Notes under the pieces: model-generated | Database searches by the model: none | What the model was told of the DNA's origin: nothing | What the model saw: only the letters and a program-made list of their open reading frames with translations | Part shown: positions 8,069 through 8,626 of the stretch, piece after piece | How positions within the stretch are numbered: the stretch's first letter is position 1 | Layout: the number at the start of each line of letters is the position of its first letter | Program-made: the position numbers and the translations under genes | Origin: Leucoraja ocellata | Taxonomy: Eukaryota | NCBI GenBank assembly: GCA_036785375.1 | Contig: JAWMAR010000167.1 | Coordinates: 5,208,001 to 5,272,000 of the forward strand | Length of the DNA stretch: 64,000 nucleotides | Direction: 5' to 3'

Positions 8069-8626
8069 ATGGATTGGGCAAGGCAGCCAGTTGTCTTCCA
8101 CCTCTTACTGCTGTGCCGGCTGATGCTGCTGCCGGCTGGGGAGAACATCTCGGTGGAGGACGGCAGCCTCCACCGCCACCACTTGGGCCGGAGGAGTGTG
8201 CTGGACATTGCCTTTGTCCTGTGGTGTTACCGCAACCGCTATCAGTTCTCCATCTACAACGTCAATGGCTACGGCTGCTACTGCGGCAAGGGAGGCGATG
8301 GCGTGCCGCTGGATGACTTTGACACCTGCTGCTTCCACCACGACTGCTGCTATGAGGCCGCGCTCCTCACCTCCTGCGGCAAGGGCACCAACATCTACCT
8401 GAAGCCCAGCTACGCCGTGTGCGAGGTGGGCAGGGCTGAGTGCCCGGAGGGCTTGCAGCCCTGCTCCAGCGACCTCTGCCTCTGCGACAAGCAGTTTGCC
8501 GAGTGCCTGGCCATCGCCACATACCAGGACCAGCACTCCAGCTATCAGCAGAAGTTCTGCACGGAACCCAAACGCAAATGTCCTGCCGAGGAGAAGATTG
8601 ATGTGGATCTGGACACCAAGAGATAG
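8069..8626 (+). CDS. Secreted phospholipase A2, group X-like, intronless CDS (185 aa prepro-protein)
   Basis: Kozak gccATGG; hydrophobic signal ([17 protein letters not shown]); propeptide ending [13 protein letters not shown]; Ca2+ loop YGCYCGKGG; catalytic [11 protein letters not shown] (His48-Asp49-Tyr52 equivalents); [11 protein letters not shown] (Asp99 equivalent); 16 Cys in the mature region; strong GC3 bias versus flanks. Confidence 0.92.

What the first reader, a model, noticed from the sequence alone, without database searches (positions are those of the whole stretch)
8069..8626. Intronless, catalytically intact group X-like secreted PLA2 downstream of CSGALNACT2
Seen: a single uninterrupted ORF encodes signal peptide, RR-terminated propeptide, Ca-loop [11 protein letters not shown] dyad, Asp99 equivalent and 16 Cys. 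The Cys set includes both the group I-type Cys11 and the group II-type C-terminal Cys, followed by a 14-aa acidic tail ([14 protein letters not shown]). Established: that Cys combination plus a dibasic propeptide defines group X sPLA2; mammalian group I/II/V/X genes have split coding exons, and human PLA2G10 is not next to CSGALNACT2. Inference: a retroposed or separately retained sPLA2 lineage in cartilaginous fish, kept under selection (no stops, high GC3 in AT-rich surroundings). Candidate roles include secreted defence, digestion or otoconin-like function.
Basis: partly seen in the sequence, partly recalled or inferred. Interest (0 to 1): 0.7.

Follow-up and report, generated by a model that had tools for sequence, protein, structure and literature searches.

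The report
Unnamed vertebrate secreted phospholipase A2 lineage
This skate gene encodes a secreted lipid-cleaving enzyme in one uninterrupted reading frame. It belongs not to the known group X but to a separate, apparently unnamed branch of the family found in sharks, rays, sturgeons, coelacanth, amphibians, turtles, lizards and snakes.

Summary
The ORF is real: 185 aa and uninterrupted, with signal peptide, RR propeptide, Ca loop, His48/Asp49/Tyr52/Asp99, 16 Cys and a 14-aa tail. It is 97% identical to an auto-named Amblyraja radiata protein. It is not PLA2G10. Two trees place it in a separate clade (support 100/98 and 100/100), and forcing it with group X is rejected (p-AU 0.0095). Coelacanth, a caecilian and a lizard carry both genes. 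The clade has its own marks: 16 residues between Cys11 and Cys27 (43 of 43, against 13 in group X) and an aliphatic residue 22. It spans cartilaginous fish, sturgeons, coelacanth, amphibians, turtles and squamates; no teleost, bird or mammal was among 44 named hits. The window gene is in a cartilaginous-fish subclade (B) that is acidic (pI about 5), strongly conserved, and lacks canonical Tyr73 and the P4 Arg of a furin site. The widespread paralog (A) is mostly basic and keeps both. Most likely it is an active Ca-dependent sPLA2 zymogen that lost its introns through an RNA intermediate. Activity, expression, synteny and paralog A's introns were not testable. Ten paper searches found no description of the clade.

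The parts
8069..8626 (+). Complete single-exon coding sequence of a secreted PLA2 precursor (185 aa)
   Evidence: 97% identical over full length to Amblyraja radiata P0002
8069..8140 (+). Probable signal peptide (about residues 1-24; cleavage point inferred, no predictor run)
   Evidence: hydropathy peak at about residues 6-21; helix 6-19 in models
8141..8194 (+). Propeptide ending in dibasic RR (8189-8194); no Arg at P4
   Evidence: aligns with the propeptide of human group X, PDB 6g5j; P4 Arg in 0 of 7 B and 33 of 34 A members
8195..8623 (+). Mature sPLA2 domain, 143 aa, 16 Cys, calculated pI 4.96
   Evidence: model Z 14.9 and rmsd 2.2 A over 121 residues to human group X, 1le6
8225..8278 (+). 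Cys11 to Cys27 segment with the clade's 16-residue spacing and Val at position 22
   Evidence: spacing 16 in 43 of 43 clade members, 13 in 9 of 9 group X, 15 in 13 of 14 group I
8270..8296 (+). Calcium-binding loop YGCYCGKGG
8339..8353 (+). His48-Asp49 and Tyr52 (precursor H91, D92, Y95)
   Evidence: invariant columns
8396..8422 (+). Segment 69-77: Tyr69 kept, canonical Tyr73 replaced by Ser (8408-8410), Tyr at 74
   Evidence: Tyr four residues before Cys77 in 0 of 7 B, and in 61 of 61 A, q, X, cyclostome and group I rows (3 A rows read from sequences)
8486..8488 (+). Asp99 equivalent (precursor D140)
8579..8623 (+). C-terminal Cys (group II/X type) and 14-aa acidic tail
   Evidence: tail of 12-14 aa in all 6 full-length B members
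7888..7894 (+). TATA-like GATAAAA 181 nt upstream of the ATG (function not shown)
26762..41719 (-). Neighbouring multi-exon CHGN-family gene (CSGALNACT2 by recall), convergent with the PLA2; context only
   Evidence: Pfam CHGN on two exons; further candidate exons

Best explanation
The gene is the cartilaginous-fish paralog (subclade B) of an old jawed-vertebrate sPLA2 clade, here called LWCY after its N-terminal motif, which is distinct from groups I, II and X. Shown: the sequence, the fold, the clade placement and protein-level conservation. Inferred from family knowledge: it is secreted as a zymogen and a dibasic-site protease removes the propeptide. Ca2+ binds the 28-32 loop and Asp49, and the His48/Asp99 pair activates water to hydrolyse the sn-2 ester of glycerophospholipids, as in group X. 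Inferred more weakly: being acidic, with Leu3, Phe7 and Trp10 on helix 1, it works on neutral phosphatidylcholine-rich surfaces (cell membranes, lipoproteins or gut micelles) rather than on bacteria, while the basic paralog A covers anionic surfaces. The intron-free coding sequence most likely comes from an RNA intermediate, at the origin of B (about 0.55) or at the base of the whole clade (about 0.25). Component odds: not PLA2G10 about 0.92; catalytically active about 0.75.
For: Clade support is 100/98 (28 of 65 rows) and 100/100 (26 of 45 rows); group X is separate at 100/99 in both. Holding B with X is rejected, p-AU 0.0095. Latimeria, Microcaecilia and Pogona each have a protein in both clades. 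Full-length clade members outside the query profile score 170-322 bits, against 107 or less for single-domain non-members. His48, Asp49, Tyr52 and the Ca loop are kept in 7 of 7 B, and Asp99 in the 6 full-length B members. The mature domain is 114-124 of about 142 identical to four shark and ray orthologues, against 17-21 of 42 in the prepro part. The fold matches group X. Group II genes have 4 exons, three of them for the mature protein (10.1101/583344 section 5), whereas this CDS has none.
Against: B sits on a very long stem (0.85 and 1.64 changes per column), and one search warned that long branches meet. Tyr73, named as part of the Asp99 hydrogen-bond network (PMC10150362 passages), is absent in 7 of 7 B, and aromatic residue 22 is absent clade-wide, so activity may be low. 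No activity, expression or vertebrate genomic data were available. No poly(A) tract was found after the stop and no AATAAA in 8627-12500; a search of 7000-11000 for direct repeats of 18 nt or more found only G-runs. No chondrichthyan PLA2G10 appeared among the 120 listed of 596 group X hits, so coexistence of the two genes in a shark or skate was not shown. Groups V and OC90/otoconin-22 were not in the trees.
Confidence: 0.65

Rival explanations
1. A PLA2-fold protein with weak or no catalysis that works as a ligand or structural secreted protein (receptor-binding or otoconin-like).
For: Tyr73 is replaced in 7 of 7 B and aromatic 22 is lost. The protein is acidic, has a conserved acidic tail, and sits on a long stem that suggests a change of role.
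Against: His48, Asp49, Tyr52, Tyr69 and the full Ca loop are kept across skates, rays, sharks and chimaera, and Asp99 in all full-length members. A conserved Tyr at 74 could stand in for Tyr73 (not shown). Otoconin-90 is described as catalytically dormant (PMC8429832 passage). Recalled: Tyr73 mutants of pancreatic PLA2 stay active but are less stable.
Confidence: 0.2
2. It is a fast-diverged PLA2G10 orthologue or retrocopy of cartilaginous fish, and its grouping with clade A is a long-branch artefact.
For: The best PDB sequence hit is human group X (E 7.8e-18). It has 16 Cys and an RR site without P4 Arg, as in human group X. No chondrichthyan group X was seen in the listed part.
Against: p-AU 0.0095. 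B shares with A the 16-residue spacing, aliphatic 22 and Trp10-Cys11-Tyr12, which no group X row has (9 of 9 rows and 9 of 9 have spacing 13). Mature identity is 35-43% to A rows, against 31-32% to human group X in structural alignment.
Confidence: 0.06
3. A venom or antibacterial defence PLA2, as the automatic names ('basic phospholipase A2 Sms-N6-like') suggest.
For: Database names; about 30% identity to snake venom enzymes, like any group I/II/X sPLA2.
Against: Calculated pI is 4.6-5.3 in the 6 full-length B members, so it is not basic. It is strongly conserved with no tandem copies in window 1-26,700. It is present in skates, manta and white shark, which have no venom apparatus (recalled).
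Confidence: 0.07

Closest known systems
Group X sPLA2 (PLA2G10; PDB 6g5j, 1le6, 4uy1)
   Same: Both Cys11-Cys77 and the C-terminal Cys (16 Cys), a propeptide ending in a dibasic site, no long group I loop, an acidic mature domain in several members, and the same fold (Z 14.9, rmsd 2.1-2.2 A).
   Different: Separate clade; Cys11-Cys27 spacing 16 against 13; Val22 against Tyr22; Ser73/Tyr74 against Tyr73; Tyr69 against mostly Lys69; 14-aa tail against 1-8; uninterrupted CDS.
LWCY clade paralog A (e.g. Leucoraja erinacea 'basic PLA2 F17-like' P0049, and frog, turtle, lizard, coelacanth and sturgeon proteins under assorted automatic names)
   Same: Nearest relatives: same spacing, aliphatic 22, Trp10 in 32 of 34, usually 16 Cys, and a C-terminal extension.
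   Different: Only 35-43% identical in the mature domain. pI is 8.1 or above in 31 of 34. Tyr73 and an R-X-X-R site are kept (34 of 34 and 33 of 34). Exon structure is unknown here.
Group IB pancreatic PLA2 (PLA2G1B; Mobula P0068 and P0077)
   Same: Propeptide, Cys11-Cys77, Tyr69 in most members, catalytic residues.
   Different: 14 Cys, no Cys50 or C-terminal Cys, spacing 15, and a separate clade that has its own ray members.
Group II sPLA2 and the otoconin-22-like sister gene (Koludarov et al., bioRxiv 10.1101/583344)
   Same: C-terminal Cys extension and the general fold.
   Different: Group II rows lack Cys11 and a dibasic propeptide and form their own clade. Group II genes have 4 exons. 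Otoconin-22-like is described as the closest relative of group II; it was not in my trees.

Membership tests
Group I/II/V/X secreted PLA2 superfamily | Pfam PF00068 domain and sPLA2 fold | tested here: met
   82.5 bits against cut-off 32.1; Z up to 15.2, rmsd 2.4 A over 126 residues
Group I/II/V/X secreted PLA2 superfamily | Ca loop xCGxGG, DxCCxxHD active site, Asp99 (as defined in PMC7583969 passages) | tested here: met
Group I/II/V/X secreted PLA2 superfamily | Tyr52 and Tyr73 hydrogen-bond network around Asp99 | tested here: inconclusive
   Tyr52 present; Tyr73 is Ser or Asn with Tyr at 74 in 7 of 7 B; model coordinates could not be inspected
Group I/II/V/X secreted PLA2 superfamily | Ca-dependent sn-2 hydrolysis | not testable with these tools
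   needs an enzyme assay
Group X (PLA2G10) | 16 Cys with both Cys11-Cys77 and Cys50-C-terminal Cys | tested here: met
   (cysteines present; pairing inferred). Not diagnostic: also in clade A and in cyclostome proteins
Group X (PLA2G10) | Propeptide ending in a dibasic site | tested here: met
   RR at residues 41-42, aligned to 6g5j
Group X (PLA2G10) | Falls inside the PLA2G10 clade | tested here: not met
   p-AU 0.0095
Group X (PLA2G10) | 13 residues between Cys11 and Cys27, aromatic residue 22, Tyr73 | tested here: not met
   16, Val and Ser here; spacing 13 in 16 of 16 distinct group X rows; Tyr22 and Tyr73 in the 9 rows
Group X (PLA2G10) | Split coding exons (recalled for PLA2G10) | tested here: not met
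   uninterrupted CDS; the PLA2G10 exon layout itself comes from recall
Group X (PLA2G10) | PLA2G10 synteny | not testable with these tools
Group IB (PLA2G1B) | 14 Cys, no Cys50 or C-terminal Cys, group I clade | tested here: not met
Group II / V | No Cys11, no propeptide, group II clade | tested here: not met
   (IIE and IIF rows; no group V row was in the trees)
Otoconin-90 / otoconin-22 | Degenerate catalytic site (stated for OC90 in PMC8429832; recalled for otoconin-22) | tested here: not met
   His48, Asp49 and Asp99 intact
Otoconin-90 / otoconin-22 | Phylogenetic grouping with otoconins | not tested
   no named true otoconin was among the hits used; one frog clade-A protein is auto-labelled 'otoconin-90-like' (P0031)
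Retrogene | Intron-free CDS with an intron-bearing parent at another locus | tested here: inconclusive
Retrogene | Poly(A) remnant and target-site duplication | tested here: inconclusive
   no A-run of 7 or more in 7000-12500; no flanking direct repeat of 18 nt or more; both would be erased at this age

The most novel reading that the evidence does not exclude
Jawed vertebrates have an additional, unnamed group of the I/II/V/X sPLA2 family, as old as groups IB and X, that was lost in teleosts, birds and mammals and so missed by mammal-based classification. It split early into a basic furin-site enzyme (A) and an acidic intron-free retrogene (B) kept throughout cartilaginous fish, possibly with the sturgeon and paddlefish second copy as its orthologue. 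B would be an active sPLA2 whose Asp99 network is rewired without Tyr73.
Probability: 0.45. Interest if true: 0.65.

Novelty: new variant of a known kind. Interest (0 to 1): 0.48.

Why it matters
The sPLA2 groups were defined largely from mammals and snake venoms. A separate, conserved clade across sharks, coelacanth, amphibians, turtles, lizards and snakes changes the ancestral gene count. It also shows that 16 Cys plus a propeptide does not by itself identify group X. It warns that database names such as 'crotoxin-like', 'taipoxin-like', 'basic PLA2 Sms-N6-like' or 'otoconin-90-like' on these proteins are automatic labels, which matters for toxin-homologue surveys. Xenopus carries paralog A, so the clade can be studied in a model animal. 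Subclade B is a natural test of whether Tyr73 is needed. The biochemistry is probably an ordinary sPLA2 reaction, which limits the surprise.

Tried and rejected
Nested or neighbouring genes: 196 stop-free frames of 48 aa or more in window 1-26,700 (repeat-masked, PLA2 region left out) gave no Pfam match above a curated cut-off. Of 2 control exons from the CHGN gene, 1 was detected, so short exons can be missed. Short recalled RasGEF motifs found nothing convincing, so RASGEF1A was not located. No second PLA2 copy: the Ca-loop, HDCC and LWCY motifs occur once each in six frames. Rfam over 5000-13000 gave no match. The Atlas search, run on the Amblyraja homologue, returned only generic PF00068 clusters. 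No solved structure of the clade exists: the best PDB match to the profile is 105.8 bits. The first structure model, built on an alignment including squamate group II rows, was mediocre (pLDDT 65); the second reached 77.6. Neither gave coordinates to check Tyr74. A chondrichthyan PLA2G10 was sought but not among the 120 listed of 596 hits; 476 were not shown. Timing of the A/B split is unresolved: B with the shark and skate A copies is marginally rejected (p-AU 0.04) and B with the sturgeon and paddlefish copies is not rejected (p-AU 0.42); both hypotheses were named after seeing a tree. Accession numbers and cluster members of the homologues could not be obtained. GC3 was rejected as evidence of selection on the protein; prepro-versus-mature conservation was used instead. 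dN/dS, synteny and expression could not be run because no vertebrate DNA or RNA collection was available. Rows left out of counts and trees: P0007 (frame-shifted model), P0060 (partial model) and all unnamed hits.

Full report
Observation. Window 8069-8626 (+) reads as 185 codons plus a stop, with no interruption. It has a hydrophobic leader, a propeptide ending in [11 protein letters not shown] at 8270 and HDCC at 8339. The 143-aa mature part has 16 Cys and a 14-aa tail, and GC3 is 0.84 in a window of GC 0.42. Pfam PF00068 scores 82.5 bits against a cut-off of 32.1. Length alone is weak evidence, since 3 of 100 shuffled windows give an ORF as long, but the homologues settle it. The protein is 97% identical to an Amblyraja radiata RefSeq protein. 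It is 73-77% identical to Narcine, Mobula, Pristiophorus and Carcharodon proteins, and 64% to a truncated Callorhinchus model. The window is therefore from a skate, and the gene is already predicted in databases under automatic names.

Surroundings. A multi-exon CHGN-family gene lies on the minus strand with its stop near 26,762, tail-to-tail with the PLA2 about 18 kb away. That it is CSGALNACT2 is my recall, not a test. No other coding gene was detected in 1-26,700: 0 of 196 frames passed a Pfam cut-off, and 1 of 2 control exons was detected. A weak reverse-transcriptase match (E 0.028) at 7533-7706 (minus) suggests a LINE relic about 360 nt upstream of the ATG. There is a GATAAAA at 7888, three short upstream ORFs, and an acceptor-like AG ending at 7952. 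The nearest downstream ATTAAA is at 10,265. 'Intronless' is thus shown for the coding sequence only.

What it is. A profile of 20 first hits found 343 proteins among 4,797 candidates, of which 120 were listed. Forty-eight of them form a block set off by a score gap: full-length members not in the profile score 170-322 bits, and single-domain outsiders score 107 or less. Forty-four of the 48 are named. They come from sharks, rays, skates, chimaera, sturgeons, paddlefish, coelacanth, caecilians, a newt, frogs, turtles, lizards, a worm lizard and a snake; none is a teleost, bird or mammal. The exhaustive search of 50% representatives gave 11 single-domain hits at 170 bits or more, 10 named and from the same taxa, then a drop to 105. 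Members hidden in clusters or unannotated genomes are not excluded, so the losses are suggested, not shown.

A tree of 65 named mature domains puts the window protein in a 7-row cartilaginous-fish subclade, B (100/98). B lies inside a 28-row clade (100/98) that is separate from group X (100/99), group I and group II. That run warned that long branches meet. A second tree of 45 rows with different group X sampling gave 100/100 and 100/99 without the warning. Forcing B with group X is rejected (p-AU 0.0095). Latimeria, Microcaecilia and Pogona each have one protein in the new clade and one in group X. No chondrichthyan group X was among the 120 listed of 596 hits, so that pairing is not shown for skates or sharks.

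Alignment-free signatures agree. The Cys11-Cys27 spacing is 16 in 43 of 43 clade members (P0007, P0060 and four unnamed rows left out). It is 13 in 9 of 9 group X and 2 of 2 cyclostome proteins, and 15 in 13 of 14 group I; seven more group X rows also have 13. Residue 22 is aliphatic in 43 of 43 members and aromatic in 38 of 38 others. Trp10 is present in 39 of 43. Sixteen Cys with a basic processing site also occur in the lamprey and hagfish proteins, so that pattern does not by itself define group X.

Two paralogs. Cartilaginous fish as a group have both A (Leucoraja, Rhincodon, Chiloscyllium) and B, about 36-39% identical; no single species was seen with both. B is acidic (pI 4.6-5.3 in 6 full-length members), while A has pI 8.1 or above in 31 of 34. 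B has no P4 Arg before the RR site (0 of 7), while A has R-X-X-R in 33 of 34. B has Tyr69 but Ser or Asn at 73 and Tyr at 74 (7 of 7). Tyr73 is present in 61 of 61 A, sturgeon-type, group X, cyclostome and group I rows; 3 of these were read by eye because extra cysteines misled the script. B is held by purifying selection: 114-124 of about 142 mature residues are identical to four shark and ray orthologues, against 17-21 of 42 in the prepro part, and 67 of 91 to chimaera. When the split happened is unresolved. B with shark and skate A is marginally rejected (p-AU 0.04), and B with the divergent sturgeon and paddlefish copy is not rejected (0.42) (post hoc tests).

Mechanism. Shown: the fold (model pLDDT 77.6; Z 14.9, rmsd 2.2 A over 121 residues to human group X, effectively tied with group I and II enzymes) and the conserved Ca loop, His48, Asp49, Tyr52 and Asp99. 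From established chemistry (PMC10150362 and PMC7583969, passages read), these residues support Ca-dependent sn-2 hydrolysis. Inferred: secretion, removal of the propeptide at RR, and action on neutral phospholipid surfaces, given the net negative charge (-6.4 at pH 7) and Leu3, Phe7 and Trp10 on helix 1. The loss of Tyr73, which the cited review places in the Asp99 network, is the main reason to doubt full activity; Tyr74 may substitute, which I could not check. An antibacterial or venom role fits poorly with the acidic charge and strong conservation. An otoconin role fits poorly with the intact active site, but true otoconins were not in the trees.

Origin of the intron-free CDS. Group II genes have four exons (10.1101/583344 section 5); the same for groups I and X is recalled. 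Loss of all coding introns points to an RNA intermediate, but whether at the origin of B or of the whole clade depends on the exon structure of A, which no tool here could show. The only hint is that 2 of 34 A models, one frog and one tortoise, leave the consensus at the same residue. No poly(A) run or flanking direct repeat survives, as expected at this age.

Literature. Ten full-text searches covered Creative Commons PMC papers and bioRxiv only, and listed no paper describing this clade. I read passages of PMC10150362, PMC7583969, PMC8429832, PMC6974423 and PMC4362833, and passages plus sections 5 and 10 of 10.1101/583344; the other papers were seen as listings only. The supplements of that preprint and subscription reviews on sPLA2 evolution were not visible and may already name the clade.

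Verdict. It is a new variant of a known enzyme family: an apparently unnamed vertebrate sPLA2 clade, with a single-coding-exon, acidic, Tyr73-less paralog in cartilaginous fish. Interest 0.48.

Noticed in passing
window 8852-8959 and 10075-10182: A 108-nt inverted repeat, 79% complementary with arms 1,115 nt apart, starts 225 nt after the PLA2 stop and matched nothing else in the window. The arms pair in the predicted fold (no shuffle control at this length). Both arms lie before the first ATTAAA (10,265), so it could form a long 3' UTR duplex; it may be an old transposon relic.
   Followed up: partly
window 7533-7706 (-): Weak reverse-transcriptase match (Pfam RVT_1, E 0.028, below cut-off), probably a LINE fragment about 360 nt upstream of the PLA2 start.
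   Followed up: no
window 7877-7988 (+): Three short upstream ORFs (ATG at 7877, 7920 and 7956; 10, 7 and 10 codons), a GATAAAA at 7888 and an acceptor-like AG ending at 7952. The 5' end of the transcript is undefined.
   Followed up: partly
protein P0007 (Carcharodon carcharias): A database model identical to the intact shark protein at both ends, with a middle that resembles another reading frame of the gene. It is a frame-shifted second copy or an assembly error, and carries the misleading name 'mojave toxin acidic chain-like'.
   Followed up: partly
proteins P0056, P0057 (Acipenser ruthenus, Polyodon) and P0048 (Acipenser oxyrinchus): Acipenseriforms also have two divergent clade members; the second could be the B orthologue or an independent duplicate.
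   Followed up: partly
clade A proteins P0033, P0040, P0042, P0045, P0050, P0052: Ca-loop Tyr28 is His in four and Phe in the two Xenopus proteins. Many frog members carry long Lys/Arg-rich C-terminal tails of 45-61 aa.
   Followed up: no
one search hit list: Birds, turtles and some teleosts seem to have two group X-like proteins per species (e.g. Lagopus muta, Paramormyrops, Electrophorus, Pelodiscus), named 'group 10' and 'phospholipase A2-like' or 'PA2V', which suggests an old duplication inside group X.
   Followed up: no
window about 59,560-60,300, with related copies at 23-245 and about 12,400-12,750: GC-rich short tandem repeat region giving repetitive open frames, probably a non-autonomous repeat element. 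59,000-60,000 also has raised CpG (o/e 0.64) and may hold the promoter of the minus-strand neighbour gene.
   Followed up: no
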